From the IMG/VR virus record IMGVR_UViG_3300045988_154040: a stretch of 64,000 bases of DNA; one strand, given 5' to 3'. Positions 16,034 to 63,600 of the stretch are shown here, in pieces. This DNA is from a virus. The first letter of the stretch is position 1, and each line of letters begins with the position of its first letter. Below the pieces are notes generated by a model. That model was not told the origin of the DNA. It saw only the letters and a list, made by a program, of their open reading frames with translations, and made no database searches. Position numbers and translations under genes: made by a program.

Positions 16034-19000
16034 ATGCAAAATAGTAGAAGAAAAATATTTAAGATTTCTACAGAGAGATTAGCTTCTAACAATTGGGATA
16101 TTAAGTTAGACCAAAAATTAGCTGTAAGGTTAGATGAATTAGTAGATTTATTTGATAATCAGTCTTTTAGGTTGTTGGATATTATTTCCAAAGCTTACAA
16201 ATCCAATCTTACAGATAAAGTGCTGGCAGTAGAAATATCTAAGAAAAAAGATTATGCCAGGGCTACTTCTCCAAAAGGCATTTATGTAAATGGTTTTAAT
16301 TTCCAATGGTTTGTAGGAACTACAGGAGGATTGAAAAATGAAACTATTTTATTTGTTCGTTCTGACCTTTTAGAAGAATTAGATAAAAGATGTGAATGCG
16401 GCAGAAAAAAAGATTATAAACTGGTTCCTGCAAAGTACGAAGCTTATAAATCTCTTACTTGTTCTGCATCTTTAGAAATTGTGGAACCTAGAGATGTACT
16501 TGTGGTTTCTGATTGTTTTGTTGATTTTTATGACAATGTAATCAATATAGATGATACAAACAATGACGAACCAGAAGTAACAATATTGGAAAATATTTTA
16601 CTTGAAAACAATGGTAGTGATGGTTTAAATTTATGTACACCAGAATATATGCAGAGAGTAGCAGAAAAACTTAATTTAGATTATATTCCTGCTGGTGGCT
16701 GTTTAAGAAATGCTTGGCTTAAGGGAATGTTGTATGTGTTTGATATTCTTGATTTTGCCGAGAAAATAGCTCAAACTTACGAAGTGAAAGATATTTGGGG
16801 ACATATTCATGATATTCGCAATGTGGATATGATTATTACAGAATCCAGTTTAAAGATTTGGGATAATTATGATAGTTGGGAAGATTATCATAGCAATTAT
16901 ATAAAAAATGGCTATCGTTTCGCCATGACTAAAGTTACACCTAAAGTTTTGGATGATGTAAGAGAAATAAATTATCAGTACTTACAATCTTACGAATTGA
17001 CAGATGAAGATATTAAAGAGTTGGCTAAACCTACTGTTGATTGGCTTAAGCAATCTTTGACTGGCGATTATGAACAAACTTTAAAATTTCTGGGAATAAG
17101 TGAAAAAACAAAGAGTAATGATTATGCACAAGCATTATATCTTAATCCAGAAATGATGAAAGACCCTTATGTAATTGACAGAATTAATAAAATGATAAAG
17201 AAAAAAATCAATAATGCTAAGATTGGTAAATTATTGGTTAATGGAAATTATCAGCTTGTAAGTGGCGACCCTTATGCTTTAATGCAACATGTTTTTGGGT
17301 TAGAAGTTACAGGTCTTTTAGAAGCAAAAGAAGTTTATTCCAAATATTGGAATGATAAAGAAGATGCAGAAGAATTAGTATGTTTTCGTAGTCCTATGAC
17401 AAGTCATAACAATATTCGTAAAATGAAAAGAATTAATAATGATACTGTGAATTATTGGTATCGTCATATGGATACTATATTTATTATTAACAACAAAGAT
17501 ACGTTTTGTATGGCTATGAACGGATGCGATTTTGATTAGTAATATAGTCCTTTGTTTTTTAACAAAGCAAGTGGTGAACCATCAGAGTATGGGTGTATAG
17601 ACTACTTTTTATTTATAAAAAAGGAATTGTAGGAAATGACAATTTGAGTCTGTGCTAACAGGGAAAGCCTAAACTTAATTGTAGATAAGCATGGTAATCC
17701 TGTGGGAAATAAAATAAAAATGTTTGCTTGTTGTAAAACAGAAAACAAACAAAAATATTTTTATTGGAAACCTTAAACGACTATCCCTTGGTCTGGTCGC
17801 AATATAAATACAGACAATAGGAGTAGGGCCATAGCGATATGGTGAGTGAAAACCTCTTAAATCGAAGTGCCACTGAACAAATATTGCAATTTAATATTTG
17901 TGAAAGATATAGTCTATTCCCTCCAAGCAATATTGGAGTTAAAGTACTGGGAAACCAGGGGTATTAAAGGGAGATGCAATTTATTCTACAAATAATTCAG
18001 TATTGTTAAGAAAATATAAGGAACTATTGGCTATTCAGTGTGTACAAAGAAAAGCAGAAAAACAAATTGTTACTAGGTCTATGATAAAAAAGAGCAATTA
18101 CAAAGGATTGGGAAATGGGGTTGGTAAAATTACCAACGATGTATCCAGTATGATTGATATTCTCTTTGGGTTACAAAAGGGTACAATTGAGTACGAGACA
18201 CTTTACAAACGTATTCTATGTGGTCAGCTATTTCAGCAAAATGAATTGGATTAACCTAAAAAATTGAGTCCAATTAAAAATCGGTGAACCTAGAAATCTA
18301 GGGTGTTTATTCTACGTGCAGGAGCGGAATTGTAGTAAATGACAATTTGAGAATAAGCTAACAGGGAAAATCTTAATAATAAAAATATTAATATAAAATA
18401 ATAAAAAAAGAGGTGAAAAATAAATGAAAAGAAAAGATTTAACAAATAATATTTATGGATGTTTAAAAGTATTATCTATAAATGAAGAAGAAACAAAACA
18501 GCAATTTAAAAAAATTATTATTAAGACAATCCTGTGCCAAGCTTAAAGAGAAATCTTTTTGAAGGTTAAACGACTAAGACATACGACCTAAGTTTTATAA
18601 AAAATATGGTTATGAAGTCTGTAGCTTTAAGGTGAAATTCCTTATTGCGAAGCGCCGATTGCCATTAGAATATTAATGGTAATGATATAGTCTATTCTCT
18701 ATGGTGACATAGAGTAGTAAAGAAATTAAAGGGTATTATTGCTAAAGATATGCCAAAGAATTGGTATATGAGGAATCATTGTAAAACAGAAATTGATAAA
18801 AAAATAGTTGCTGATAAAAAACCATATTATTTCATGTATAATTATCCTACTATAAAAAAAGATTATGATAATTATATTAAACATAGTAATAATAAATGTT
18901 TGATGTTATATGGATGTACCGTAGAAGAATTAGAAGCAAAATATTTGGAGAATCCAGAAATTTTTTCTGAGAACTGTAAAGAGTTTTTATATTGGTATCA

Positions 19001-19448
19001 TGCACAAATGCCAGTTAATTGTTCTCCATCTACAATGAATCGTTTATGTTGGTATATTGAATCTGAGTTTAATGGATATGTCACTCAATTAAAGAATCAA
19101 AATTTTGACTATACTTTTTTAAAGAATAATAAAGTTGTTCGATATCCAAAAGCAAAAAAAGAAGAAATTGAAAAATTAGAAAAAGAATATGTACGCAGAA
19201 TTAAAAACTTTAAAATAATTGCCAAAGAAAATAATTTATCTGCTGAAGAAGCTAATAAAAAGACAGAAGCATTACAACAAGAATTTAGAGATGAAGCAAT
19301 AAAAATTTGTTCTAATAAATGGCAATTGATGAATATAGTATTAGATTTATGCTATGGAAAGAATAAGAACAAATATTTTTGTTGGGCTGTTATTGGAGAT
19401 TTAATAATTGAAAAATTAAAAGAAGATGGAGAGAAAGAAAATGAATAA
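16034..19448 (+). CDS. YonO-like single-subunit (two-barrel) RNA polymerase in three exons: join(16034..17536,17970..18251,18732..19448), 833 aa
   Basis: Exon 1 ends ...AMNGCDFD and exon 2 begins GDAIYS.... The restored NGCDFDGD resembles the NADFDGD/DxDGD metal loop. The size is close to SPbeta YonO (recalled). HU-like genes lie downstream, as yonN lies next to yonO. Confidence 0.6.
17537..17969 (+). mobile_element. group I intron (no ORF) in the RNAP gene
   Basis: R-like TTAAACGACTATCCC at 17773-17787 and S-like AAGATATAGTC at 17904-17914 give P7 GACTAT/ATAGTC. P1 is GAT|TA (17534-17538) with TAGTC (17545-17549), including U.G at the splice site. The intron ends in G17969, and the junction restores the reading frame. 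Confidence 0.75.
18252..18731 (+). mobile_element. group I intron with a degenerate homing-endonuclease remnant in the RNAP gene
   Basis: P1 is AATTGGAT (18244-18251) with GTCCAATT (18268-18275). R-like TTAAACGACTA at 18566-18576 and S-like TGATATAGTC at 18683-18692. It shares the block GGAATTGTAG(G/T)AAATGACAATTTGAG...GCTAACAGGGAAA with intron 1. A 40-aa ORF at 18424-18546 (MKRKDLTNNIYGCLKVLSI...) looks like the N-terminus of a homing endonuclease. Confidence 0.7.
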
Positions 19449-22376: not shown

Positions 22377-25300
22377 ATGAATGAAAATGAAGAAATAGAA
22401 TTTAAACAACCTACTATAACAGAATTAATTGAAGAACGTAAAAGAAAAAATGAAGCAAAGAAAAAGAAAAATAAAAAAATACCTTATGAACAAAGAAGAA
22501 AAAATATTATAGAATGGACTACTTTTTATAGACGTAATTGGAATCTTTATGCAGTGCATAGATTAATGTTGTCTCTATACCCTTTTCAGCATATTATGCT
22601 TTATTTAATGGGTATAAGTAGTACATTTTTTGCTATATGTAGTCGAGGTTTATCAAAAACCTTTATTGTGGCATTAGGTGCGTTAATTCATGGATTGCTT
22701 TATCCTTATGCAGAAGTGGTTATTACTTCTTCTACTATTCCACAGGCCAAGAAAATGGTAGATAAGAAAATGGAGAATGAATTGTGTAAAAAACTTTCTC
22801 CATTGTTACAATATTATTATGAACATGAAGATATTAAATTTTCATATAGTGATAATGAGATAAAAGTTGAAATTAAACCAACAAATTCAACTATTTTAGT
22901 ACTTCCTTGTTTGGACAGTGCTAGAGGTGGAAACATTAAGTTGCACAACTCGCCTCTCTGGTTGGTGACAATCAGTAAAAATAAATTGGGAAAGAAACCT
23001 GGAAACCTGAAATGGTAATCAGAATGGAAGGATACGTGTAATAGCGTATTCACATGCAGAGCGTAGACATTGAACCTGTTTGAATCAGAATATAATATGT
23101 CCAAGAGTTCCCAACCCTTTAAATATAAAGGTGAAAAGGTACGCCGACCTTGCTAGAAATACAATAGCAAGAACTATGGGATAAAAAGCCCATAGGATAA
23201 CATTTGGAACGTGCAACTTTTCTTATATATGAAGAATGTAGACTTTTGAAAAAGACTATTATAGATAGTGTTTTTCAGAAAATGGCCCATCCACGTCAAG
23301 CTAAATTTTTAACTTTATCAGAATATCAAGATGAAGATGGAAAACCTTTATCTCGATGGTTAGAGGAATGTAAATCTGTTTATATTACTTCTGCTAGATT
23401 CAAGATAGAATGGTTTTGGACGGAATTTAAAAAAGTAGTTCAACAATGTATGATATCTAATAAGCATAAATATAATTTCTTTGCAGGAAATATATTTTTA
23501 GCAATATTATATGGTTTAAAAACATGGCAAGATTATTTTCATGCCAAAGAATTTGATAGTGATATAGACCATAGAACAGAGGATTTAAATGAAATGATAG
23601 GGGAAGCAGATGGAGCTTTCTTTTCTATGGAATCTTTTAAAAAGAACCAAATTATACGTAATGCTTTTAAACCTCCTACTATATTGGATTTATATTCTAA
23701 TGTAGATTTAGGAAACAGACCCAAGAAAGATGGAGAAAAACGATTAATATTCATTGACTATGCTTTTGCGAATACTACATCAAATTCTAAAAATGATAAC
23801 AGTGTTATTGGCTGTATGTCTGTTATTTTTAGAGATGATGGGAAAACCTTAAGGGAAGTAGATTATATAGGTACTCACCCCGCAGGAGACAGTATAGGAT
23901 TTAACTTGAAAATTAGAGAATTTTTCTTTGATTATCAAGCTGACTATATTGTATTGGATTAATTCTGAGGTCCACTTTTATGGTGACATAAAATGAATAA
24001 ATGTGTTGAATTGCTGGAAACCCCTAAAGCCACATGAACCACAACGTAAGTATGAAATAAGACTAAGCGTGATGGTGACGAAAGTAGAAAAAATCATGTG
24101 GATGGCATAAGGTTAAATCCTAAGTGCTTTAAAATGGGCAATCAGCCGCCAAGCTCTGAATAGGAGAAGGTTCAACGACTATCCCGCAAGGGAGTACACT
24201 GCAAGCGATTGGCAGTGGAAGTGGCACACATCTTATGAAATTAAGATGAAGATATAGTCTGCTCTATATGGAAACATATAGTATCTAACGTGTAGCGGCG
24301 TTTTCTTAACTTATAAAAAGTAAATAAGACAGAGGGTAGCTCCCTTTTCTTGTACTGCAATACAGGATTATTATTTACTTTTTATCATATCTTTTTGCAG
24401 AAAGGTTTAAGGTAGAAATTATGAAAATTTGGGAAGTAAATTCTAGTAAGCGTTTTAATTTTGGTTGTATTTATTTATGGACTAATCTTATTAATGGTAA
24501 ACATTATGTTGGACAGACAGTTAATTTTTATCAACGTATTCAACGATATAAGAAAGGTTTAATTAATTCTTATATGAAAGAAGATATTGATAAATATGGT
24601 ATGGAAAATTTTAAAGTTGAAATATTGGAAAGGATAGAAGATATTTCAAATGAAGATTTCCTTACTGAAAGAGAGCAATATTGGATGGATTATTATCAGT
24701 CTTATGATTTAGAAAAAGGCTATAATATATTTGATGTTGCTGGCAATGTCTGTTATTTAAAACGTAGTGATACTATTAAAGAAAGATTTTGTGGAGAAGG
24801 AAATGGAATGTATGGTAAACATCATTCTGATGAATGGAAACAAAATCATTCTGATTGCGTAAAAGGTTTGTGGAAAAAAGAAGAATATAGAAAAGTTCAG
24901 ACAGAAAGGATGCAAGGAGAAAATAATCCTATGTATGGGGTATCTTTAGATGGTGAGAAAAATGGAATGTATGGTAAACATCATTCTGATGAAACCAAAA
25001 GAAAGATAGCTGAAAGTAAAATAGGGAAAACTCATGCACCTACTCATTTTAAAAGAGTGAGATGTGTTGAAACTGGAAAAATCTATAATAGTCAGAGTGA
25101 AGCCGCACAAGAGTATGGCATAACTCCGGCCGCAATCAGTTTAGTTTGTAAAGGTAAAAATAAGACAGCCAAGAAAATGCATTGGGAATTTGTAGACTAA
25201 TCTCAAAAATAGTAATAGAAACAATACAAGACTCAGAAATGGCGGTGAAGTAAATTTTAATGACCTTACTACAATTCTTGAACATCCTCAAAGAGATGAA

Positions 25301-25819
25301 AAACATTGGAATAGTCATGGATTTACTGTTTGTCATGAAAACAAATTGCATGTACTTCCAAAAGCTAAGATTGAAGATTTGAAAAGTAGGGCTGTTGACC
25401 AACAAGCAATTCCTGCTATTATTCCTATTCAGGGTACAGAGGAATTAAACAGTAATATGTGGTTAGACTTACAAAAAGCTCTTAAAGGTGAATATATTCA
25501 TTTCTTAATTGATGAACTTAATTTGGAAACTTTGATGGAAGAAGATTTAAGTTATTTTGATTTAAGTAGCGAAGAAAAAGCAATTATTAAATTGCCTTAT
25601 GTTCATACTCTGGAAATGATAGGTGAAGCTATAAGTCTTAATCAAACCTGGAACGGAGGTAAGGTTAAACTTCATGAACCTACCACAACAGATGCTACAA
25701 AGGATAAAATAGTAGCAGTTAGTTATTGTAACTATATAGCTACTTTACTGGAAAATAAATATGCTATACAAAATCAAAATGATACTAGTATGATTGATAT
25801 AGAACAATTGGTATTTTAA
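22377..25819 (+). CDS. terL: terminase large subunit in three exons: join(22377..22928,23207..23959,25232..25819)
   Basis: Walker A-like AICSRGLSKTF. Junction 1 restores SARG|ERATFLIYEE (Walker B-like). The nuclease domain has IFIDYAF and ADYIVLD|LRNGGEVNFNDL. Confidence 0.85.
22929..23206 (+). mobile_element. short ORF-less group I-like intron in terL
   Basis: P1 is AGAGGT (22923-22928) with GCCTCT (22952-22957), with U.G at the splice site. Candidate P7 is GACAT/ATGTC (about 23066/23095). Terminal hairpins are CTTGCTA..TAGCAAG and CTATGGG..CCCATAG. The intron ends in G23206, and the frame is restored only by this junction. Confidence 0.55.
23960..25231 (+). mobile_element. group I intron carrying a GIY-YIG homing endonuclease gene in terL
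   Basis: The 5' end resembles the T4 td intron as I recall it: TTGGAT|TAATTCTGAGGTCCAC. P1 is TGGAT/GTCCA (23970-23974). P10 is CTGAG (23965-23969) with exon 3 CTCAG (25232-25236). R is TTCAACGACTATCCC at 24171-24185 and S is AAGATATAGTC at 24248-24258. The ORF lies 3' of the core. Confidence 0.8.
24421..25200 (+). CDS. GIY-YIG homing endonuclease (I-TevI-like, NUMOD3 repeats, C-terminal HTH)
   Basis: GCIYLWTNLINGKHYVGQT...R...YKKG. Repeated NGMYGKHHSDE(W/T)K motifs. C-terminus IYNSQSEAAQEYGITPAAISLVCKGK. Confidence 0.9.
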   Translation: MKIWEVNSSKRFNFGCIYLWTNLINGKHYVGQTVNFYQRIQRYKKGLINSYMKEDIDKYGMENFKVEILERIEDISNEDFLTEREQYWMDYYQSYDLEKGYNIFDVAGNVCYLKRSDTIKERFCGEGNGMYGKHHSDEWKQNHSDCVKGLWKKEEYRKVQTERMQGENNPMYGVSLDGEKNGMYGKHHSDETKRKIAESKIGKTHAPTHFKRVRCVETGKIYNSQSEAAQEYGITPAAISLVCKGKNKTAKKMHWEFVD

Positions 25820-51817: not shown

Positions 51818-51875
51818 GAATAAAATAATTTTTAATTTGACTGTATAAAAATTTAAAGAAAGGAAACAATTAAGT

Positions 51876-53128: not shown

Positions 53129-53200
53129 AAATACTCTAAATAGAGTATAATATAAATGTAACTAAAAAAATAAAGGTTTTAAGAAAGAGAGGAATTTAAA

Positions 53201-53362: not shown

Positions 53363-53369
53363 TGTTATT

Positions 53370-53393
53370 AAGGGAGGGATAATATCCTCCCTT
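53370..53393 (+). terminator. rho-independent terminator
   Basis: AAGGGAGG(G)AT-AAT-ATCCTCCCTT. Confidence 0.6.
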
Positions 53394-53438
53394 TACATAT
53401 TTTTAGAATATGAATAAAAGGAAAAGAGGGAATAAAAA

Positions 53439-53884
53439 ATGAATATACTAAATCGTTTTCCAACGGGGGGGTTATCTTCTGAGGTCACAGCAACTAACAA
53501 CCAACTTTTAACAGGGTATACAGCTATAACGGCTAACTCAATCTGTTACTCTTATGAAGGGTTCTAATATAACACCTAATACATCTGTAGTAACAATTCC
53601 TACCAAGAAGTTATAATTTAATTCCTTATAATTTAATTAATGTTGAAGTAAATCCTCCAACTTCATCTATTTCTTTATCTACAGTTTATAGGAGTATAGT
53701 ATTTCATTATGGGAGCGATTTAAATACAAGAGATGCATTTATAAATTCAACGAAACCATCAACTTATGTATTTAGTTTTGATATATCAGGAATAAATGCA
53801 ACTAAATGGTTTACGTTTATGTTCTTTTATAAAGAAAATACCAGTGCTTATAAAGGAATTATAAATCGTATTTGGTTTAGCTAA
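53439..53884 (+). pseudogene. frameshifted tail-fibre-like gene (paralog of the 51876-52160 N-terminus) containing a G7 tract
   Basis: MNILNRFPTGGLSSEVTATNNQLLTGYTAITANS parallels MNNFTSGGAPTDELTATPAEVMKGYKFLGSG. The reading frame breaks twice into three open segments ending at 53884. Confidence 0.5.
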
Positions 53885-53902
53885 AAAGAAAGGAAGATTA
53901 TT

Positions 53903-54823
53903 ATGGCAGATTTAAAAACGGCAAAAGGACTAGTGGAATTTGCACAGTCTAAAATTGGTACACATTATGCATATGGAGCAAAAGGAGAGATACTTACTAA
54001 AACAAAAATATATTCCTGGGCTAGAATGTATCCTAACATTTATACTCAGTCTTATATAAACCAGCTTTTAAAATGGGTTGGTGAGTATGCAGTTGATTGT
54101 TCTGGTCTTATTTCATGGTATACTGGTATCATTCGTGGTTCCAGTAATTTTGAACAGACTGGTACAAACAAGATACAGCCTTCAAAACTTGATGATGGTA
54201 AGTTTGGTTGGGCGGTATGGAAAAATGGTCATATCGGCATTGTAGAGAGTTCTACCAAGGTCATAGAGGCAAAAGGTATCAATTATGGCACCATCCGAAG
54301 CAACAGGACTTCTACCCCATGGGTAAACGCTTTCCAGATAAAGGATATTAATTATCAGGCAGAAGAAGGTTTACAGGGATGGAAAAAGGTTAAGGATGGA
54401 TATGTATATTTTCAGAATGGAGTTATGCTGAAAAATGCATGGGTAAGGGATAAAGACAGATGGTATATTTTAGCTGGTGATGGCCTAATGATTCATGACG
54501 ATTGGTTTTATGAGAATGGAAGATGGTATTATTTGGCTGGGGATGGCGGTATGATTTCTAACCAGTGGCTTTTATATAAGGATAATTGGTATTATTTTGA
54601 TGGGGCTGGGGTTTGTTTAACAGACACATGGTATAAATATAATGGAGACTGGTATTACTTAGATGGTACAGGAGCTATGCATAAAGGAATGCTTTATGAT
54701 AATGGTGAATGGTATTATTTGGATAACGAAGGTAAATTAGTTACAAATAAAAGTATTGTGTTTGATGCTAAAGATGATGGAGCATTAAAATTTGCTGGAC
54801 TTGTAAATAAATTTGATGAATAA
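53903..54823 (+). CDS. endolysin: NlpC/P60-type peptidase plus choline-binding-type cell-wall repeats
   Basis: AVDCSGLISW...GHIGIV (Cys/His). The C-terminus has five to six G(W/D)xxxxGxWYYLxxxG repeats. Confidence 0.85.
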   Translation: MADLKTAKGLVEFAQSKIGTHYAYGAKGEILTKTKIYSWARMYPNIYTQSYINQLLKWVGEYAVDCSGLISWYTGIIRGSSNFEQTGTNKIQPSKLDDGKFGWAVWKNGHIGIVESSTKVIEAKGINYGTIRSNRTSTPWVNAFQIKDINYQAEEGLQGWKKVKDGYVYFQNGVMLKNAWVRDKDRWYILAGDGLMIHDDWFYENGRWYYLAGDGGMISNQWLLYKDNWYYFDGAGVCLTDTWYKYNGDWYYLDGTGAMHKGMLYDNGEWYYLDNEGKLVTNKSIVFDAKDDGALKFAGLVNKFDE

Positions 54824-54836
54824 TGGAGGTAAAAAT

Positions 54837-55025
54837 ATGGTAACTATGAGTAAGTGGGGGGGGGCAAACGGTACTGCCGAAGCAGAATTTTGTGGCTTAA
54901 GTACTGATAATAAACCCGTAGATGAAGGAATTCCTAATGGTTCATCATTTTTTGAGATGGATACATTTAAAGTATATTTCTTTAATAAAGCGACAAAAAC
55001 ATGGATAACTGAGGGAGGTGTTTAA
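54837..55025 (+). CDS. small protein with a G9 tract at codons 7-10
   Basis: ATG at 54837 with GGAGG 7 nt upstream: MVTMSKWGGANGTAEAEFCGLSTDNKPVDEGIPNGSSFFEMDTFKVYFFNKATKTWITEGGV. Confidence 0.55.
   Translation: MVTMSKWGGANGTAEAEFCGLSTDNKPVDEGIPNGSSFFEMDTFKVYFFNKATKTWITEGGV
54856..54864 (+). repeat. homopolymeric G9 tract
   Basis: Read directly from the sequence. Confidence 0.95.
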
Positions 55026-55607
55026 ATGTCTCCCATGCAAGTTTTAGCTATTTGCTTAAATAAAATTGCAAAGATAAATGGTGAAATAGAAGCTATTCCT
55101 GCCGCATTAGTTTTTAAAGCATCAATAGATAACGTGGATTTACTTCCTATCAATCCAAGAGTAGGAGATATGTATAATATAACAGTTAAATCCATTTATG
55201 GTGAACCAGGAATGAATGTAGCCTGGAATGGAACAGAATGGGATGCATTAGGAAGTACCATAGATTTAAGTCAGTATTATACCAAAACAGAAACAGATAA
55301 TAAATTTTCGTATAAAACCAGTGTTAAGGCCGTAGAAGGAAATACTATTTCTATGGCTTTAACAAATAATATTTTATATGTTTTTTCAGAATTAGTTTCT
55401 CTTAATATTACAGGTTTAAATAATTCATCTGAATCGGGTGAAATAATTAGGGAATGGATGTTTCAGTTTACTTCTGGGGTAACTCCTACAGTAGTAACTT
55501 TTCCTGCTGGTGTAAAATCTGAAATGATTGTTGCGCCTAATACAGTATATCAATGTAGCATAGTCAATAATCTTCTTACTTTTCAGGGATGGAAGGTGAG
55601 TAATTAA
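55026..55607 (+). CDS. hypothetical tail-fibre-module protein
   Basis: 193-aa ORF coupled to its neighbours. Confidence 0.5.
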   Translation: MSPMQVLAICLNKIAKINGEIEAIPAALVFKASIDNVDLLPINPRVGDMYNITVKSIYGEPGMNVAWNGTEWDALGSTIDLSQYYTKTETDNKFSYKTSVKAVEGNTISMALTNNILYVFSELVSLNITGLNNSSESGEIIREWMFQFTSGVTPTVVTFPAGVKSEMIVAPNTVYQCSIVNNLLTFQGWKVSN

Positions 55608-57181
55608 TGAGTTTAATGCGTAGAGAGCAGATGGATTGCTGTAATTATTTTGAAGCTACAGGTAATGAAATTACTATAGATTCTAAAAGTAATTGGATGC
55701 AATTAGAAAGTATTGAAGGAAATACTACTCAGTTGCAAACTACAGGAGCGCAATTGTTTGATGCCAATAAGATACCATCAAAGTCCCAGGGAGGTGCAAC
55801 GGTAGTCAATAATGGTGATGGTAGTTTTACTATAACTGGAACAGGTGTTTTAACGGAAACATTTTATAGTGAGCATATCTATTCCAAAGACAAAACATTG
55901 CAGGTGCTTAAACCTGGAAAATATAACATATCAAAGTCTGATGTTTACCCTCGGTGCGCCTTTTTGTTGCTAGGAACAGGATTAAATAAGGAAATCACGA
56001 GTCAAACTGCAATACCAATAGAAATAACGGCTGAGGACCTTATGGTAAATGATGTGCATGTTATAATTTCTATATACGGTAATAAAAACAGCACTATAAA
56101 ACCCGGTACAATAAAGCCTATGGTATGGATGAAAGAAGCAATTCCAACAGATTCAGATTGGGAACCTTATACGGGAGGTAAACCATCACCAAGCCCAGAT
56201 TATCCACAAGAAATTGTAAATGCTGATATTAAATCTGTTATTGTTAAGTCAGCACAAATGTTTAATATAGATAATCCTTCTTCTTCATTAGGTCAATGGA
56301 TTATTACAGGAAATAAAATTTCTATAACTAATCCTACGAGCGGTTATTTAAGTCTTAATTATAATATTAATGTTATACCAAATACATTGTATACTTTTTA
56401 TAGTATTATATTTAATGATACACCTAATGTAGAAAGTATGCATGTTTCAATTTCTTTGTTAAGAGAAGATGGAACTGTAATAAAAGATAATGTAATAATT
56501 TTAAATAATACTTCATCAGGTAAATTTACAACTACAGAAGATACTAAATCTATTAATATTTATTTTAGAAATAGGACTACAGGTAATGGTGGCTATTTTA
56601 AAGATATAGTTCTTAATAAAGGAAGTTCTGTTATTCCATGGCAACCTTATTATAACCCTCAAACAATTTCTCTTACTTTTACTGAACCTTTCAGAAAAGT
56701 TGGAGATTATGCAGATGAAATAACTCCCACAAAAACAGTTAGTCGTTGTATAGAGATAACATTAGATGGTAGTGAAAATTGGTCTGTTAGTACATCTGAT
56801 AAAAGATTTCAATTGTCAGGAAGTTTACCTGTTCCTATGAATAGAAGGGCAGGATTTTGCAATCAGTATTTTGTAAGAACCAAAAGAATAAAAAATGAAC
56901 CACAATTATTCTTAGGAATTAATAATAATGATTTTATTTATATTCCTTATAATCAATTCTATGATGAATCTTTAGAAGATAAAGGTTTGTCATTATGGAA
57001 AGCTCATTTAGCTACCAATCCTCTTAAGATTATTACTTATACAAATCCAGAAGATTATGTAGAAACTCCCTTAGACCAAAGTAATGTTGACGCAATTAAA
57101 AGTCTTTATGCTTATAATGGAGTTACTTTATTAAACAATAATGAAAATACTGTTATGAAAGTTATGTATAAAAGTAAGTAA
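55607..57181 (+). CDS. putative receptor-binding/tail fibre protein (524 aa)
   Basis: Last large beta-rich ORF of the plus-strand block, followed by a bidirectional terminator. Confidence 0.5.
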   Translation: MSLMRREQMDCCNYFEATGNEITIDSKSNWMQLESIEGNTTQLQTTGAQLFDANKIPSKSQGGATVVNNGDGSFTITGTGVLTETFYSEHIYSKDKTLQVLKPGKYNISKSDVYPRCAFLLLGTGLNKEITSQTAIPIEITAEDLMVNDVHVIISIYGNKNSTIKPGTIKPMVWMKEAIPTDSDWEPYTGGKPSPSPDYPQEIVNADIKSVIVKSAQMFNIDNPSSSLGQWIITGNKISITNPTSGYLSLNYNINVIPNTLYTFYSIIFNDTPNVESMHVSISLLREDGTVIKDNVIILNNTSSGKFTTTEDTKSINIYFRNRTTGNGGYFKDIVLNKGSSVIPWQPYYNPQTISLTFTEPFRKVGDYADEITPTKTVSRCIEITLDGSENWSVSTSDKRFQLSGSLPVPMNRRAGFCNQYFVRTKRIKNEPQLFLGINNNDFIYIPYNQFYDESLEDKGLSLWKAHLATNPLKIITYTNPEDYVETPLDQSNVDAIKSLYAYNGVTLLNNNENTVMKVMYKSK

Positions 57182-57186
57182 TAAAA

Positions 57187-57223
57187 ATACCCTCTCCAAT
57201 TTTGTTAGGAGAGGGTATTTTTT
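57187..57223. terminator. bidirectional rho-independent terminator between convergent blocks
   Basis: ATACCCTCTCC (57187-57197) pairs with GGAGAGGGTAT (57208-57218), flanked by A-run and T-run. Confidence 0.8.
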
Positions 57224-57226
57224 GTT

Positions 57227-57472
57227 TTATTTTGATTTTAAATATTTATGCAAATATTCTAAATCTTCTTTTGTAAAATTTACTTTACATTCATTGAGTG
57301 CTTGTTTCCACAATGTTCTATCAAATTTGTCAATGATTAAGTTAGGATTTTTAATAAAAGTGATATCGCTAATGCCGTAAATTTCTTGCATTCTCAAACA
57401 AATTTTTGCACCTTTTTCTGTATTATTGTAATTTTCGTTATTGATTATTTCTTCTAATATTTCATCAAACAT
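57227..57472 (-). CDS. hypothetical protein
   Basis: 81-aa ORF. Confidence 0.5.
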   Translation of the reverse strand: MFDEILEEIINNENYNNTEKGAKICLRMQEIYGISDITFIKNPNLIIDKFDRTLWKQALNECKVNFTKEDLEYLHKYLKSK

Positions 57473-57492
57473 TTTATATTCTCCTTATTTCT

Positions 57493-58179
57493 TTATTTTG
57501 TTCCTGTTGAACCGAAGCCACCTCTGTCTGGATTTCCCAAGTTACAAACTGGTACAAAAGAGATATCGGGCTGTTTCTGGTATATTCTGAACTGAGCTAT
57601 ACGGTCGTTTACATAGATAGTTGTATCTCTTATAGCTAATGCTAAAAATGACCATATATCGTTATCACCACAATAACTGTTGTCAATAATACCTTGTGAA
57701 TGTGCCATGATAATGCCAAATTTTTCAGGTGTACTACTTCTGGGAAGAACATGGGCTTCATAGTTTTCTGGTAACTGCATAGATATACCTAAAGAAATTC
57801 TACGAATCTCTCCTTTTTTAAGAGATACTTCTTCGGCGGCTCTTAAATCAATCCAATCAGATTTGTCGCCGCCAATCTTTTGTAAATAAATTAATTCTGG
57901 ATTATGATATTTGATATAAATTTCCTGCTTGGATGATTCTTTACTTGTAATTTTTTTGAAAGTTTCTATTTCATCAATACATTTTTTACTAATCCAAAAA
58001 AATGTATTAGTATTTTCAATTCTAATTAAATAGAAAAGACCATCTTTATCATTATAATCCATTTCTGTAATTTTTGCTTTTGCGCCCCTGTATTTTTTCA
58101 TTACTATTCCTACATTTTCTAAGATTTTAGAATTTTTTGTTAAAATTATTATATCTCCTACATTGTAATTATTTTTCAT
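57493..58179 (-). CDS. dut: trimeric dUTPase with an N-terminal extension of about 90 aa
   Basis: Motifs PRSS, GIIDNSYCGD and RGGFGSTG in the C-terminal 140 aa. The N-terminal part (MKNNYNVGDIIILTKNSK...) is unassigned. Confidence 0.88.
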   Translation of the reverse strand: MKNNYNVGDIIILTKNSKILENVGIVMKKYRGAKAKITEMDYNDKDGLFYLIRIENTNTFFWISKKCIDEIETFKKITSKESSKQEIYIKYHNPELIYLQKIGGDKSDWIDLRAAEEVSLKKGEIRRISLGISMQLPENYEAHVLPRSSTPEKFGIIMAHSQGIIDNSYCGDNDIWSFLALAIRDTTIYVNDRIAQFRIYQKQPDISFVPVCNLGNPDRGGFGSTGTK

Positions 58180-58212
58180 TTTTATATCTCCTTTTTAAAA
58201 TTTATTTTTAAT

Positions 58213-58590
58213 TTACAATTTTCTAATTATAATTCCACCCATAGCCCATAAATCATACCTACCATATTCACTTTCTTTTTTATCATAATTGATGCTTACA
58301 GGGAAAGAAGGTATATTTTCATTTCTTTTATCTCTTACCAATGTAGCTACAAATTTTTTTGATTTGTAAAAATTAAATTCAGTTTTATCGCCAATACCCA
58401 TTTCTATCCAATCTTCAAAATTATTAGAAAGTAATACTTTTGTCCCGGCTGGCAAAAAGTTAATGGTGTTATATATTTTAACATCATTAGAATTAAGAAC
58501 AAAACTTTTTTTGTTAAAAAAGAAAAGTCCTTCTTTTATAGCCCATTCTTTTAACTGAGTTTCTTTTTTCTTTTTCATTCTTTTATTCAT
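58213..58590 (-). CDS. hypothetical protein
   Basis: 125-aa ORF downstream of promoter 58692-58720. Confidence 0.5.
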   Translation of the reverse strand: MNKRMKKKKETQLKEWAIKEGLFFFNKKSFVLNSNDVKIYNTINFLPAGTKVLLSNNFEDWIEMGIGDKTEFNFYKSKKFVATLVRDKRNENIPSFPVSINYDKKESEYGRYDLWAMGGIIIRKL

Positions 58591-58691
58591 GGCTTATTTC
58601 TCCTTTTAATATAGAATATAAATTGGTACATACGAGTACAAGAGTTTAAAATAATATAGATGAAGAAGTATTCGTCTTTTTATTTATCTTT

Positions 58692-58720
58692 ATTATACTT
58701 GATAATACTAAGTCTGTCAA
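58692..58720 (-). promoter_or_regulatory. consensus sigma-A promoter TTGACA-17 bp-TATAAT (minus strand)
   Basis: Plus-strand tgtcaa at 58715-58720 and attata at 58692-58697. Confidence 0.65.
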
Positions 58721-58760
58721 GGAAAATGAGCACATTCCCTGACAGACTTTATAATGATTT

Positions 58761-59273
58761 TTATTGAATTGTCTGATAATTACTATTATAGAAAGACGTT
58801 AATCCAATATATAAACATGTATGTTTCTTTTCTAAAGAATATCTATAATTAGGATTTAATTCTCTTTTAAGTTCTAACTCTATTTGATAGAGTTGTTCTA
58901 AATACCAGTTTATTATTTCTTCATCATTGGGAAATGCATCTTTATAAATAGGTATTTTCAAAAGAAAATTATCTATAGTATAGGGATTATTAGGATTCTT
59001 CATTTTTATTTTCTCTCCTTTATTTTCTCTCCAATCTATTATATGGTCAGAGTTAAAGTTAAATTCATTTAAATAAACCCTATAGCCCAATGATATAAGT
59101 TTAGAAAATTCTTCATTTGTTAATTTCCCTATTTTTTTCGTACAACATTGAAAACATCCTTTCTTTTTGGCTTTGTTAATAATACGATAAATTTTATTCC
59201 AGCGAATGTCTACAGTTTCTTCACGTATAATTTCAGCATTTACTAAGGGAGTTGAATCATTAATCATAGTCAT
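58761..59273 (-). CDS. hypothetical protein
   Basis: 170-aa ORF downstream of promoter 59324-59352. Confidence 0.55.
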   Translation of the reverse strand: MTMINDSTPLVNAEIIREETVDIRWNKIYRIINKAKKKGCFQCCTKKIGKLTNEEFSKLISLGYRVYLNEFNFNSDHIIDWRENKGEKIKMKNPNNPYTIDNFLLKIPIYKDAFPNDEEIINWYLEQLYQIELELKRELNPNYRYSLEKKHTCLYIGLTSFYNSNYQTIQ

Positions 59274-59323
59274 ATTTTTAATCTCCTTTTATTTTTATTT
59301 ATTATTTATATTAATTTATATTA

Positions 59324-59352
59324 ATTATACTATATAAAATATAATAAGTCAA
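59324..59352 (-). promoter_or_regulatory. sigma-A-type promoter TTGACT-17 bp-TATAAT (minus strand)
   Basis: Plus-strand agtcaa at 59347-59352 and attata at 59324-59329. Confidence 0.6.
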
Positions 59353-59399
59353 TATAAACTTAATATAACCTTCAATTCGTAAAGTAAAATAGGCTGTCT

Positions 59400-59775
59400 C
59401 CGTTGCGGCTCGGAATCACGTAACAAAAAATATTTTTGTATATGAAACTATTACTGTGAGTTCGTATATGCGAATTTTAGGGGTTGACAAGCGGGCCGAG
59501 AGGGTGTATAAATGAGAAAAGCCAACCCCTCGTTGCCTGAGAGGTCAGCTTTACTTTTACTATCTTCGTCTAGGTGGAGTGCGATAATATGATGGTACAT
59601 GGTTCCATCTTCCATAATGGAAGCGGTCGTACCCATTCACAAAAACCGTTTTCCGTCTAAACTTTTTTTAATCATCTAAAATCTCCTTATTTTTTATTCA
59701 TAGGGATTTCTCCTCCTATGTATTAAGAACAATTTTAGATTAAAGTTTGATAGTTATTCTATTATAGCATACAAC
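59400..59775. other. GC-elevated, structure-rich non-coding island with opposing promoters (candidate sense/antisense small RNAs)
   Basis: On the minus strand, TGcTATAAT (plus-strand coordinates 59761-59770) is followed by two SD-led mini-ORFs (MNKK, MIKKSLDGKRFL). An 8-bp stem AGGGGTTG/CAACCCCT lies at 59479-59530. A CTTCCA-TAA-TGGAAG hairpin lies at about 59600-59614. No convincing protein is encoded. Confidence 0.4.
59484..59512 (+). promoter_or_regulatory. sigma-A-type promoter TTGACA-17 bp-TATAAA on the plus strand inside a minus-strand block
   Basis: TTGACA at 59484-59489 and TATAAA at 59507-59512. Confidence 0.45.
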
Positions 59776-59790
59776 TAGACAAAAATAAAC

Positions 59791-59826
59791 AAAAACCCTC
59801 AGTTCATGTCGAAACTGAGGGTTTTT
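59791..59826. terminator. bidirectional terminator after nrdG
   Basis: AACCCTCAGTT (59794-59804) pairs with AACTGAGGGTT (59813-59823), flanked by A5 and T5. Confidence 0.8.
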
Positions 59827-59900
59827 GTTTACAATCCAGAATCATTTATATCTGATTCATAATTCTTATCAAGATACTGTAATGTTAATCCTATTTCATA

Positions 59901-60592: not shown

Positions 60593-60626
60593 GAGTTTTA
60601 CTAGGTTATTTTAAAGTAGATTAGAA

Positions 60627-63600
60627 TTAATTTTCATTATCTCCCAAATGAACAAATCTATCTCTAATTTCTTCTGTTCTTCCATAATTCCAATAATGAG
60701 TTCCTATATACATTTCTACCCTCGATTTCTCGATATTTATTAGGGGATTGGACTATTCCTTATGTTCTCTCCATTTAAATAGATTGGTTGAGCAACACCG
60801 ATAATTATAGTCTCTGCACCTTTTTATTGACATATTCCTTTATTTGTTCTTTTCTTGATTTTAAAATTTGTGGTTCTTCTTTAGGGTATCTATATTCTTT
60901 AAAAAGAATTTTTTCTGCATACCATCTAGCCCAATAAGCTTCTTCTTCATAAATGTAAGTTCCTAAATTAAGCATTTTTTGATTTATTTTAATATGGGCA
61001 TAATATTTATTATCTTTAGTTAGACTAACACCTTTATAATTAACATTCATTTGATTTTGTGATTTAGTAACTATTCTTAAATTTGATTTTCTATTGTCTA
61101 ATTTATTATGATTTATATGGTCTATAAAAACATCTTTTTCTTCAATTTCCATAATTACATGTGTCATATGTTTGTTGGAACCTTTATACTTAGGAGTATT
61201 CATAGCATAACCAGAACTAGATAATTTCCATTTTATATTTTTTACTTTAGATAAATCTTCTGTATCAATTATTACTTTTGCAATAACTTCGTAATTTTTA
61301 TCATAAAGATTTATAGTAGTAATTTCTCCATTTATAAAATATTCGTTTTTATCAAGTAATGTTCTAGGATTATTGTCTAAAAATTTTCCATACTTTTTTT
61401 GCTGTTTGTAATGTTTAGGACATAAAGTATATCCATAACTTTTAATTTTACGAGTTAAAGGTCTTTTACAAATATCACAATAAAACATTAATTTTTCCTC
61501 CTTTCTTTATTATTTTTATAGGAATATGTCAATAAACTTGGCTCAAGATTATCCGTTTAATTTATATCATAATAAATTAAGTGTGGACTTCCCTTGAATT
61601 TCTATCGTTTTGAGATGTGGCAATAATTTAGAACAATCTTGGTCTACCACATGTTCTTCTAGCGATATTCATTGTATCCTGATTAGTATTTCCGCAATTA
61701 GGGCAATACCAAGTCATATTGTTTGAATTGATTTTCATTTCTCCGTCATAACCGCATTCATGACAATAATCACTTTTTGTATTTAATTCTGCATACATGA
61801 TATTATCATAAATGAAACGCATAACTGTTAAAACAGCATCTATATTTCCGGTTAAATCAGCCGTTTCAATATAACTTATTGCCCCACCAGGAGAAAGTTT
61901 CTGAAACTTGGATTCAATAGCTAATTTAGTAAATGGGTCAATATGCTCAAATACAGGAACATGATAGCTGTTAGTAACATAATCTCGGTCTTTTCCATCA
62001 AGTTTTATAAATACATCTTCACCAAATCTTTTCTTAAGACTTTTAGCGAATTTATAAGTTCCACTTTCTAATGGAGTACCATATACAGAATAATCTATAT
62101 CTTCTGCCGCTTTCCACTGAGCACATTTATCATTAAGTTTCTGCATAACTTCCAGGCCAAATTTCTCACCTTCTGCTCCATCAGTGTGTGAATGCCCTGT
62201 CATATATTTTACACATTCGTATAAAGCCCCGTAACCTAATGATACCGTACAGTAACCATGATGAAGTAAGTCGTATAATCCTTCTTCTTTATTCAAACGT
62301 GCCAATGCGCCGTTCTGCCATAAGATAGGGGCCACATCAGAAGTAACCTGTTCCAATCTTTTTAATCTGGCCTTTAATCCTAAATGACAAAGCTCTGTTC
62401 TTTCTTCAAATAATTCCCAGAATTTGTTAAAATCTCCACCAGATGATAATGCAAGGTCAGCTAAATTAATAGTTGTAACCCCGGCATTAAATCTTCCATA
62501 ATACTTATTTCCCTTTTCCCAATTATTGCATTTACTATAATTTTCTGTTGTTCTATCAGGTGTAAGGAAAGACCTGCATCCCATACATGCATATACTGCA
62601 TTTTTATATTCTCTCATTTTCTTTGCTGAAATATAATCTGGAACCATACGTTTAGCCGTACATTTAGCCGCCAATACAGTTAAATTCCAATAAGGAGAAT
62701 TTTCTTCTATATTGTTTTCATCCAATACATAAATCAGTTTAGGAAAAGCAGGAGTAATATAAACTCCCTTTTCATTTTTCATTCCTTTTATTCTCTGTTT
62801 TAAAAATTCTTCGATAAGTAAAGCTGTTTCCTTTTCATATTCTTTATCTTCATTAATATACATATAAACTGTAAGGAAAGGAGCCTGACCATTAGTGGTA
62901 CTCATACTATTTATCTGATAATTGAAAGTCTGTACACTATCTTTGATTTCTTTCTTTAAATCTTCTTCGGCCCATTTAATTGTATCTTCTTCATTAAAAC
63001 CTCTTTTTTTATATTTGTCGTAATAAATTTCATAGCTTTTTCTGACAAAAGGAGCTAAATGGGTTAAAGTAATAGTGATTCCTCCATATTGGCTAGAAGA
63101 AACAGCAGTAATTATCTGAGTTGCTACTGTCACGGCTGTGCTTAATCGTTTCTGTGCATCAATAGCTACTCCATTAATAACTGTACCAAAGTTTAACATA
63201 TCTTCAAGATTACATAAACAACAGTTATGAAGTGCTTTCTGGGCCATATAATCCATATCATGTTGATGAATTATACCTTCGTCATGAGCCTTACATACTT
63301 CTGGGGGCAATAAAAATCTTCTAGCAATATCTGTAGAAGTAATACCAGCTAAATAATCACGCTGAACTGTTACTACTTTGCTATCTTTATTTGAATTTTC
63401 AGAAGTCCAGTATTCACTTTTATTACCTAATAATTCCATAACATCTTTATCTGTAATACTTCCCCTGGCAAGAGTACGATTGTTACGATAAACAATATAG
63501 GCTTTTGCTACATCTTTGTACTTAGATTTCATTAATGTGCGCTCTACTACATCTTGTATTTCTTCTACCGTATATATTTTTTTCTTTTTTAAGTTTTCTT

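What the first reader, a model, noticed from the sequence alone, without database searches (positions are those of the whole stretch)
17537..61645. Five group I introns in 64 kb, each next to a catalytic or conserved motif of an essential gene
The interrupted sites are RNAP DFD|GD, RNAP ELD|GII, TerL SARG|ERATFLIYEE (Walker B region), TerL IVLD|LRNGGE (nuclease acidic residue) and NrdD RRTCG|YIG (glycyl radical loop). Four introns have R-like (T/C)AACGACTA or CAGAGACTAT and S-like GATATAGTC or AATAGTCC elements that form P7. All five have a 5' splice-site U that can pair with a G of a nearby internal guide. The two RNAP introns share a near-identical block of about 50 nt (17623-17672 vs 18325-18376), which suggests intron duplication or transposition within one gene. 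Homing-endonuclease status covers the full life cycle: intact GIY-YIG, intact HNH-AP2, a 40-aa remnant, and two introns with no ORF.
Basis: partly seen in the sequence, partly recalled or inferred. Interest (0 to 1): 0.7.

Follow-up and report, generated by a model that had tools for sequence, protein, structure and literature searches.

The report
Five group I introns in phage
Three conserved genes of a gut-bacterium (Enterocloster) phage – an RNA polymerase, the DNA-packaging terminase and an anaerobic ribonucleotide reductase – are interrupted by five self-splicing group I introns that a close relative lacks exactly; this is a well-known phage phenomenon, newly seen in this lineage.

Summary
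The window is about 99.5% identical to Enterocloster phage CB473P3. Against the related phage PMBT24 it has exactly five clean insertions. Each sits inside a reading frame that is uninterrupted in PMBT24:
- I1, 17537-17969, RNA polymerase, DFD|GD
- I3, 22929-23206, TerL, SARG|ERAT
- I4, 23960-25231, TerL, VLD|LRNGGE
- I5, 60711-61645, minus strand, NrdD, RRTCG|YIG

All five follow a U that pairs with a G of an internal guide sequence. All five have a P7 helix.

Rfam passes only I4 (96 bits). I1 scores 39 bits and I2 matches in part. I3 and I5 score nothing, but this is a sensitivity problem. I3 belongs to a large phage intron family with a covarying P7. A model built from outside sequences scores it 86.8 bits. 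I5 shows compensatory changes in P1, P3, P7 and P9 against a homologous nrdD intron.

Multiple group I introns at conserved sites of phage genes are well known, so this is a new member of a known kind.

One oddity remains unexplained: I4 ends in A, not the usual G.

The parts
16034..17536 (+). RNA polymerase exon 1. It ends ...NGCDFD.
   Evidence: 98% identical to PMBT24 RNA polymerase nt 1-1503. The predicted fold resembles QDE-1/RDR2 two-barrel polymerases.
17537..17969 (+). Intron I1 (433 nt, no ORF). Elements: guide GUC 17547-17549; P2 hairpin 17625-17644; P4/J4-5 17658-17669; R element 17773-17786; S element 17903-17918; terminal G 17969.
   Evidence: Precisely absent from PMBT24, CB473P1 and CB457P2. 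RF00028 full-length match of 39 bits, E 3.8e-8 when searched locally. P2 shows compensatory changes against CB457P1. Coordinates.
17970..18251 (+). RNA polymerase exon 2 (GDAIYS...QQNELD).
   Evidence: 92% identical to PMBT24 nt 1504-1785.
18252..18722 (+). Intron I2 (471 nt). Elements: guide GUCCAAUU 18268-18275; P2 hairpin 18328-18347; 40-aa endonuclease remnant 18424-18546; R element 18565-18578; S element 18681-18696; terminal G 18722.
   Evidence: Absent from PMBT24. RF00028 partial match over P8-P7'-P9, 27 bits, E 1.3e-4. P1 has 8 bp with U.G at the splice site. Folding z-score -4.9. CB473P1 carries the same intron with an intact 250-aa HNH ORF, and the remnant matches that ORF's N-terminus.
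18723..19448 (+). RNA polymerase exon 3 (KLKGIIAKD...).
   Evidence: Aligned to PMBT24 nt 1786-2496. D595, K596, K598, G599 and I600 are invariant in 19 homologues.
22377..22928 (+). TerL exon 1 (ends ...LDSARG).
   Evidence: Aligned to PMBT24 TerL. Terminase_6N match over residues 89-210 of the spliced protein.
22929..23206 (+). Intron I3 (278 nt, no ORF). Elements: guide GCCUCU 22952-22957; P2 22958-22975; P3 22986-22992 with 23108-23114; P7 5' strand within 23056-23067 (GCGUA); P7 3' strand within 23134-23146 (UACGC); terminal G 23206.
   Evidence: Absent from PMBT24. Folding z-score -3.95. Custom model R1, built from 68 outside sequences, scores 23053-23152 at 86.8 bits, E 7e-17. Family covariation is shown. 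Homologues sit in split genes of other phages.
23207..23959 (+). TerL exon 2 (ERATFLIYEE...DYIVLD).
   Evidence: 88% identical to PMBT24 TerL nt 559-1312.
23960..25231 (+). Intron I4 (1272 nt). Elements: guide CUGAGGUCCA 23965-23974; ribozyme core to about 24281; R element 24170-24184; S element 24248-24262; GIY-YIG/NUMOD3 endonuclease ORF 24421-25200; 31-nt tail ending in A25231.
   Evidence: RF00028 96 bits, E 1.6e-23. Absent from PMBT24. Compensatory changes among alleles in P2, P3, P6 and a P7.x hairpin. Pfam GIY-YIG and NUMOD3 matches.
25232..25819 (+). TerL exon 3 (LRNGGEVNF...).
   Evidence: Aligned to PMBT24 TerL nt 1318-1899. CUCAG 25232-25236 is complementary to CUGAG 23965-23969 (P10).
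61646..63775 (-). NrdD exon 1 (ends ...RRTCG; the last base is U61646).
   Evidence: Colinear with the intron-less nrdD of CB457P2 and PMBT24. NRDD and Gly_radical Pfam matches cross the junction of the spliced protein.
60711..61645 (-). Intron I5 (935 nt). Elements: guide UUGCCACAU 61615-61623; P3 61603-61607 with 60799-60803; P4/P5 61585-61598 with 61542-61554; HNH endonuclease ORF 60805-61488; R element 60805-60819; S element 60748-60761; terminal G 60711.
   Evidence: Absent from CB457P2 and PMBT24. Compensatory changes in P1, P3, P7 and P9a against the homologous nrdD intron in L199. The 3' 60 nt are 87% identical to the annotated TerL intron of Staphylococcus phage Romulus. HNH_3 match.
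60623..60710 (-). NrdD exon 2 (YIGTHYWNYGRTEEIRDRFVHLGDNEN plus stop).

Best explanation
The window comes from an Enterocloster bolteae siphovirus of the CB473P3/PMBT24 group. It holds five group I introns. Two are in a single-subunit two-barrel RNA polymerase (QDE-1/YonO-like), two are in the terminase large subunit, and one is in the anaerobic ribonucleotide reductase NrdD.

Inferred mechanism, following the established group I pathway:
1. Each intron is transcribed within its host mRNA.
2. It folds into the group I core: P1 with the internal guide, the P3-P8 and P4-P6 domains, and P7 with the guanosine pocket.
3. It is removed by two transesterifications that start with an external guanosine. 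This restores the reading frame.

I4 encodes an intact GIY-YIG endonuclease and I5 an intact HNH endonuclease. These can cut intron-less alleles and drive homing. In this window I2 has lost its HNH gene to a 680-nt deletion. I1 and I3 have no endonuclease gene.

The introns sit at or within a few codons of highly conserved codons. This is the usual consequence of endonuclease targeting and of selection for precise splicing.

What is shown: the insertion points, the presence/absence polymorphism, the RNA architecture and covariation, and the endonuclease domains. What is inferred: splicing itself and homing.
For: **Identity of the phage.** 99.5% identical to CB473P3.

**Clean insertions.** There are five clean insertions against PMBT24 and none elsewhere in the alignable part of the window.

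**Polymorphism among isolates.** I1 is absent from CB473P1 and CB457P2. I2 occurs with and without its endonuclease gene. I5 is absent from CB457P2. CB457P1 has a different intron 1 nt away in nrdD.

**Restored frames.**

**Rfam RF00028.** I4 96 bits. I1 39 bits, full length. I2 27 bits, partial.

**I3.**
- The P7 complement is present in 84 of 89 family members, in four covarying versions (GCAUA, GCGUA, GAGUA and the canonical GACUA). A shifted control gives 1 of 89.
- 96% of cells pair and the covariation score is 0.66, against 0.17 for shuffles. This includes the P7.2 and P8 helices, which were not used to select the sequences.
- Outside-trained model R1 gives 86.8 bits on I3. Its second-best hit in the window is the I4 core, aligned in register.

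**I4.** Compensatory changes among seven alleles.

**I5.** Compensatory changes in P1 (two), P3, P7 and P9a against L199, which sits at the same nrdD site. The 3' end matches the annotated Romulus TerL intron.

**Endonucleases.**

**Host motifs.**
- The D499, D501, D503 triad and D595/K596 are invariant in RNA polymerase homologues.
- The fold matches QDE-1/RDR2 with E about 1e-15.
- The Gly_radical domain spans the NrdD junction.
Against: - No transcript data were available, so splicing is not shown.
- Rfam's curated threshold is reached by only one of the five introns. I3 and I5 get no RF00028 match even at E up to 10.
- I4 ends in A rather than G in this window and in many other alleles. 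Its guanosine-pocket pair in P7 is unchanged.
- In I1 the exon-binding part of P1 is only 3 bp.
- The ORF-less I5 construct has a folding z-score of only -0.5.
- I5's covariation rests on one divergent homologue lineage (L198 and L199).
Confidence: 0.88

Rival explanations
1. One or more of the insertions, most plausibly I4 with its terminal A or I1 with its 3-bp exon pairing, is a decayed intron. It no longer splices, or splices only poorly or with help. The host gene would then be partly inactivated, expressed at a low level, or rescued some other way.
For: I4 lacks the terminal G in the window and in CB473P1/2/3, CB457P2, L135-L137, L159, L163, L177 and L184. I1's exon-binding P1 is only GAU/GUC. 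I2 has already lost its endonuclease gene.
Against: The same alleles occur in four plaque-purified lytic isolates. Terminase is required for packaging in tailed phages (established knowledge). The I4 core is conserved and shows compensatory changes among alleles. Its P1 and P10 pairings are intact in both allele classes.
Confidence: 0.07
2. I3 is not a group I intron. It would be some other small insertion, such as a different ribozyme class, a miniature mobile element or a translational bypass element.
For: There is no RF00028 match at any threshold.
Against: It has group I topology: P1 with U.G, P2, P3 enclosing P4-P6, P7 crossing P3, P8 and P9, and it ends in G. Its family includes members with the canonical GACUA/UAGUC P7, and the helix covaries. 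Homologues interrupt a RecD helicase and a major tail protein next to endonuclease genes. The family model aligns the Rfam-confirmed I4 core in register.
Confidence: 0.03
3. This is the reader's sub-claim: I1 and I2 arose by a recent duplication or transposition of one intron within the RNA polymerase gene.
For: A 44-nt block is 88.6% identical, and a second 43-nt stretch is 79% identical. The upstream GGUGAACC...GGGUGU segments are similar.
Against: The shared block is the conserved P2-P3-P4 core. The remainder of the two introns does not align. I1's 3' end is closest to the nrdD intron of CB457P1, at 74% over 62 nt. I2 carries or carried an HNH gene, and I1 has none. The pattern fits two diverged members of one subfamily, possibly with a recombination patch.
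Confidence: 0.12

Closest known systems
Group I introns of Herelleviridae phages: Twort-like Staphylococcus phages such as Romulus/Remus, and the Bastillevirinae (PMC11878797)
   Same: Several introns occur per genome, and two or three can occur in one terminase or polymerase gene. They are IA-like cores with HNH or GIY-YIG endonuclease genes in loops, and Rfam often matches only one side. The 3' 60 nt of I5 are 87% identical to the annotated TerL intron of Romulus. PMC11878797 reports TerL genes with two or three introns and up to six introns in one genome.
   Different: The host here is a siphovirus of a gut Clostridia species, and it is not a Herelleviridae member. One interrupted gene is a two-barrel single-subunit RNA polymerase, which is not among the interrupted genes that the passages read from that paper list. 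The introns are not annotated in the GenBank records, and the only paper found on these phages never uses the word intron.
Phage T4 td, nrdB and nrdD (sunY) introns (from my own knowledge)
   Same: They are self-splicing group I introns in nucleotide-metabolism genes, including the anaerobic reductase. The endonucleases are intron-encoded (I-TevI is a GIY-YIG enzyme). In sunY the ORF lies 3' of the ribozyme core, as it does in I4.
   Different: The insertion sites and the sequences differ. Here the NrdD intron sits exactly after the glycine codon of the RRTCG|Y glycyl-radical motif. I did not check the T4 position.
Rfam RF00028 Intron_gpI
   Same: I4 matches over the full length at 96 bits. 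I1 aligns over the full length at 39 bits.
   Different: I2, I3 and I5 fall below threshold or are not detected. The model also misses related phage introns.
I3-type phage intron family, recognised by GAAUAUAAU-N5-CAAGAGU between P7 and P3'
   Same: I3 matches a model of the family at 86.8 bits. The motif occurs in more than 120 IMG/VR contigs and in split genes of Bacillus, Clostridium and Staphylococcus phages.
   Different: I could not link this family to a named subgroup with these tools. Extra hairpins between P7 and P3' suggest subgroup IA, by my recollection of Michel and Westhof (1990).

Membership tests
Group I intron | The insertion interrupts a gene, and removing it precisely restores a colinear conserved product. 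| tested here: met
   Five of five. Shown by blastn against the intron-less alleles and by translation of the joined exons.
Group I intron | The 5' exon ends in U, and that U forms a U.G wobble with an internal guide sequence (P1). | tested here: met
   - I2: AAUUGGAU with GUCCAAUU.
- I3: AGAGGU with GCCUCU.
- I4: UGGAU with GUCCA.
- I5: AUGUGGU with GCCACAU, which covaries with the exon in L199.
- I1: only GAU with GUC, plus two intron base pairs.

Group I intron | The intron ends in a guanosine (omega-G). | tested here: inconclusive
   I1, I2, I3 and I5 end in G. I4 ends in A25231 in this window and in at least 11 other alleles. Four alleles of the same intron end in G.
Group I intron | A P7 helix formed by the R and S elements, crossing P3 as a pseudoknot. 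| tested here: met
   - I1, I4 and I5: GACUAU with AUAGUC.
- I2: GACUA with UAGUC.
- I3: GCGUA with UACGC.

Covariation supports P7 in the I3 family and in I5 against L199.
Group I intron | The conserved core helices P3-P8 and P4-P6, as scored by a covariance model. | tested here: inconclusive
   - At the RF00028 gathering score, only I4 passes.
- In a local search, I1 scores 39 bits over the full length and I2 scores 27 bits in part.
- I3 and I5 have no RF00028 match. They are supported by the custom model R1 and by compensatory changes.
Group I intron | Guanosine-dependent self-splicing. | not testable with these tools
   This needs in-vitro transcription and splicing, or RT-PCR from infected cells.
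Mobile (homing) intron | An intron-encoded homing endonuclease, together with presence/absence polymorphism at the same site in related genomes. | tested here: met
   I4 has GIY-YIG plus NUMOD3. I5 has HNH_3. I2 has an HNH gene in CB473P1 and a remnant here. Polymorphism is seen among the six isolates. Cleavage and homing were not tested.
Two-barrel RNA polymerase (QDE-1/YonO-like), the host gene of I1 and I2 | A DxDGD metal-binding loop and the double-psi beta-barrel fold. | tested here: met
   D499, D501 and D503 are invariant in 19 homologues. Three of the 19 homologues hit Pfam RdRP PF05183. The AlphaFold model (pLDDT 88) matches QDE-1 and RDR2 with E about 1e-15 and TM about 0.5. Polymerase activity and template type were not tested.

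The most novel reading that the evidence does not exclude
The TerL intron I4 may splice in vivo with a 3'-terminal adenosine instead of the near-universal terminal guanosine. P1 (UGGAU with GUCCA) and a perfect 5-bp P10 (CUCAG with CUGAG) place the junction at GAU|CUCAG, which is also the junction of the intron-less allele. The nucleotide before the 3' exon is then A. This holds in the window, in four cultured isolates and in seven metagenomic alleles, two of which have no G at position -2 either. Sister alleles of the same intron end in G. The guanosine-pocket pair in P7 is the same in both classes. If the terminase mRNA is really ligated at this junction, this would be a natural group I intron that does exon ligation without omega-G. 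The alternative is a 5' cleavage after A with a D-to-E change.
Probability: 0.3. Interest if true: 0.6.

Novelty: new member of a known kind. Interest (0 to 1): 0.4.

Why it matters
- **Annotation.** The GenBank records of these phages list the exons as separate hypothetical proteins. The only paper on the group reports low TerL identity between relatives without noticing the introns.
- **A natural experimental system.** Six cultured, closely related phages of a human gut commensal carry different combinations of five or more introns. PMBT24 lacks all five studied here and CB473P3 has all five. This makes homing and intron gain or loss directly testable by co-infection.
- **A gap in the standard tool.** Rfam RF00028 misses most of these IA-type phage introns. 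That includes a family with more than 120 members in IMG/VR.
- **A new host gene.** A QDE-1/YonO-like phage RNA polymerase joins the list of genes invaded at their catalytic motif.

Tried and rejected
- **Rfam at gathering score and at E up to 10.** I searched 9.5 kb, 3.5 kb, 1.3 kb and 0.34 kb stretches, plus five related loci. Only I4, I1 and part of I2 were found. I reject this as evidence against I3 and I5 because known-looking introns were missed as well.
- **Sequence searches for the RNA polymerase.** Pfam, the PDB sequence search and a profile search of the PDB found nothing. PHROGs gave only families of unknown function. Identity came from homologues with PF05183 hits and from the fold search.
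- **A sixth intron.** Extra R-like or S-like words at 9822, 11569, 30856 and 56747 lie inside ordinary ORFs or in the wrong order. Model R1 found nothing else above noise. The parts of the window that do not align with PMBT24 (about 1-13000 and 51000-59300) were not examined as closely.
- **Alternative splice sites for I4 that keep a terminal G.** All three Gs in the 3' tail (25212, 25218, 25230) are in the same phase. Each would need a 5' exon ending in ...GA. Shifting the 5' site to U23960 gives stop codons. Rejected as a clean solution.
- **Inteins or translational bypass.** Rejected. The inserts carry in-frame stops and are 278 to 1272 nt long.
- **Thermodynamic z-score for ORF-less I5.** Not significant.
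- **Literature search for natural introns without omega-G.** Nothing relevant was found.

Full report
**Source of the window.** Megablast places the window in the Enterocloster bolteae phage group. It is 99.5% identical to CB473P3 over 11.6 kb and 97.6-97.7% identical to CB473P1, CB473P2 and CB457P2. It is 90.7% identical to CB457P1 and 89% identical, in pieces, to PMBT24. PMBT24 annotates one uninterrupted 831-aa 'RNA-dependent RNA polymerase', one 632-aa terminase large subunit and one nrdD. In CB473P3 the same regions are strings of 'hypothetical proteins' plus one 'intron-associated endonuclease'.

**The observation.** blastn of the PMBT24 genes and of the whole PMBT24 genome against the window gives exactly five insertions with no counterpart gap in PMBT24:

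| Intron | Window coordinates | Length | Host gene and junction |
|---|---|---|---|
| I1 | 17537-17969 | 433 nt | RNA polymerase, DFD\|GD |
| I2 | 18252-18722 | 471 nt | RNA polymerase, ELD\|KLKGII |
| I3 | 22929-23206 | 278 nt | TerL, SARG\|ERATFLIYEE |
| I4 | 23960-25231 | 1272 nt | TerL, IVLD\|LRNGGE |
| I5 | 60711-61645 (minus strand) | 935 nt | NrdD, RRTCG\|YIG |

Joining the flanks gives open frames of 836, 630 and 737 aa, colinear with PMBT24. Everywhere else the two genomes differ by replacement rather than by clean insertion.

**Polymorphism among isolates.**
- CB473P1 and CB457P2 lack I1 exactly.
- Those two phages carry I2 with an extra 680 nt that encode a 250-aa HNH protein.
- CB457P1 has I1 to I4 with sequence differences.
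- CB457P2 and PMBT24 have an intron-less nrdD.
- CB457P1 has a different, ORF-less intron of about 284 nt one nucleotide downstream of the I5 site.

This presence/absence pattern at fixed sites is what mobile introns produce.

**The host genes.**
- *RNA polymerase.* The protein has no Pfam or PDB sequence match of its own. Three of 19 homologues hit Pfam RdRP PF05183. An AlphaFold model (pLDDT 88) matches QDE-1 and RDR2 with E about 1e-15. It also matches, more weakly, a Thermus phage polymerase and bacterial beta-prime subunits. In an alignment of 19 homologues D499, D501 and D503 (the DFDGD loop) are invariant, and so are D595, K596, K598, G599 and I600. I1 therefore sits inside the metal-binding loop, and I2 sits between two invariant residues.
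- *NrdD.* The NRDD and Gly_radical Pfam domains run across the RRTCG|YIG junction. That this G is the radical glycine follows from the known RVCGY-type motif of class III reductases (my own knowledge).
- *TerL.* Terminase_6N covers residues 89-210. I3 lies four codons before FLIYEE, which has the form of a Walker B motif. The role of D437 in the nuclease domain is inferred, not tested.

**Covariance models.** At gathering score Rfam RF00028 finds only the I4 core (23951-24281, 96 bits). In a 1.3-kb search it aligns I1 over the full length (39 bits, E 3.8e-8) and the P8-P7'-P9 part of I2 (27 bits, E 1.3e-4). I3 and I5 give nothing. The same search also gives nothing for the obvious CB457P1 nrdD intron. 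It gives nothing for four loci where I3-like sequence lies in split genes next to endonuclease genes. The Bastillevirinae study notes the same kind of partial or one-sided matches. A negative Rfam result is therefore not informative here.

**I3.** The minimum-energy fold shows P1 (AGAGGU with GCCUCU), P2, and a long-range helix UUGGGAA with UUCCCAA enclosing P4-P6. Its z-score is -3.95. By inspection, P7 is GCGUA (within 23056-23067) with UACGC (within 23134-23146).

The 3' half of I3 is 70-75% identical to unannotated DNA in several other phages:
- a split RecD helicase of Bacillus phage PJN02;
- a split major tail protein of a Staphylococcus phage;
- Clostridium phages.

A conserved word between P7 and P3', GAATATAAT-N5-CAAGAGT, occurs in more than 120 IMG/VR contigs. 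Among 89 unique members with the P7.1 pairing, 84 have the exact complement of the P7 5' strand downstream. These fall into four covarying versions: GCAUA (42), GCGUA (34), GAGUA (4) and the canonical GACUA (4). A shifted control gives 1 of 89.

On a 68-sequence alignment, 96% of cells pair and the covariation score is 0.66, against 0.17 for shuffles. Two helices that played no part in selecting the sequences, P7.2 and P8, pair in 95% and 89% of cells, with three and five double-changed pairs. A covariance model built from these outside sequences scores I3 at 86.8 bits (E 7e-17). Its next-best hit in the whole window is the Rfam-confirmed I4 core, aligned in register (18.5 bits). I3 is therefore a group I intron of a large phage family whose P7 sequence differs from the textbook one.

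**I4.** Seven alleles share an identical P7 but show compensatory changes in P2, P3, P6 and a hairpin between P7 and P3'. The guide CUGAGGUCCA pairs with the 5' exon (UGGAU) and with the 3' exon (CUCAG). The ORF at 24421-25200 has GIY-YIG and NUMOD3 domains and lies 3' of the core.

**I5.**
- P1 is 9 bp with U.G at the splice site.
- A homologous intron at the same RRTCG| site of a different phage (L198 and L199; endonuclease 60-63% identical) differs by compensatory changes in five places:
  - two in P1, where exon and guide change together;
  - one in P3 (CGAUA/UAUCG becomes CAAUA/UAUUG);
  - one in P7 (GACUAU/AUAGUC becomes GACUGU/ACAGUC);
  - one in P9a.
- The last 60 nt are 87% identical to the 3' end of the TerL intron of Staphylococcus phage Romulus. 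They lie just after a CDS annotated 'group I intron protein', again with one compensatory change.
- The ORF has an HNH_3 domain. It is 27% identical to the I2 endonuclease of CB473P1, which has a weak AP2 match.
- The folding z-score of an ORF-less I5 construct is not significant.

**I1 and I2.** The two introns share a 44-nt block at 88.6% identity (17623-17666 against 18326-18369). It covers the P2 hairpin, the P3 5' strand and P4. They also share a 43-nt stretch at 79% identity. The rest does not align. I1's 3' end is closest to the CB457P1 nrdD intron. This fits two diverged relatives rather than a recent duplication within the gene. The 40-aa ORF in I2 matches the first 30 residues of the full-length HNH protein of CB473P1. 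I2's P1 is 8 bp. In I1 only 3 bp (GAU with GUC) involve the exon.

**The unexplained point.** The intron-less allele, P1 and P10 together fix the I4 junction. With that junction, I4 ends in A25231. The same is true in CB473P1, CB473P2, CB473P3, CB457P2 and seven metagenomic alleles. Two of these have no G at position -2 either. CB457P1 and three metagenomic alleles end in G. No alternative splice-site pair keeps both a terminal G and a 5' U in frame. I cannot resolve this without cDNA.

**Comparison with what is known.** Multiple group I introns at conserved sites of phage genes are well documented. The cases include two or three introns in one terminase gene and up to six in one genome (T4 and Twort from my own knowledge). 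I found no paper that mentions introns in these Enterocloster phages. I found none that links group I introns with YonO/QDE-1-like phage polymerases.

**Verdict.** The finding is real and correctly interpreted, and it is a new member of a known kind. Interest is moderate. It corrects annotation, offers a neat natural system for homing, exposes a documented Rfam blind spot, and includes one oddity that can be tested.

Noticed in passing
window 25228-25236, and the alleles in L002-L005, L135-L139, L159, L163, L177, L182 and L184: The last nucleotide of TerL intron I4 is A in the window and in many other alleles (..CAAGA|CUCAG or ..CAAAA|CUCAG). Sister alleles end in G (..UUCG|CUCAG). P7 is identical in both classes.
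   Followed up: partly
L008, about 2457-2740 (CB457P1 nrdD): A different, ORF-less group I intron of about 284 nt sits one nucleotide downstream of the window's I5 site (GGGU|...AAAGG|AUAUAGG). Its 3' end resembles I1 of the RNA polymerase gene.
   Followed up: partly
window 59316-59900: This intergenic stretch downstream of nrdG is 95% identical to PMBT24 4974-5565. There it lies at a different genome position, beside a short CDS annotated as transposase. It contains a terminator-like hairpin and a region richer in G+C. It may be a small mobile segment or an RNA gene.
   Followed up: no
window 17544-17557: I1's guide region reads GUCCUUUG, but only GUC can pair with the RNA polymerase exon (GAU). 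The full octamer would fit an exon ending in CAAAGGAU. This hints that I1 came from another site.
   Followed up: no
window 23085-23105, and IMG/VR loci L015-L134: The word GAATATAAT-N5-CAAGAGT marks a large phage intron family with more than 120 IMG/VR contigs. Rfam RF00028 does not detect it in the loci tested.
   Followed up: yes
CB457P1 genome, outside the window (PMC11035940): The PMBT24 paper describes the CB457P1 tape-measure gene as split into two ORFs around an unrelated 157-aa ORF. It also reports 'low identity' of TerL between these phages. Both look like further unrecognised intron or endonuclease insertions.
   Followed up: no
window 8220-9952: A 1.7-kb stretch has no collinear counterpart in PMBT24. 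It holds paralogous small early genes; for example, 9882-10205 resembles 7794-8138. I saw no sign of a split gene.
   Followed up: partly
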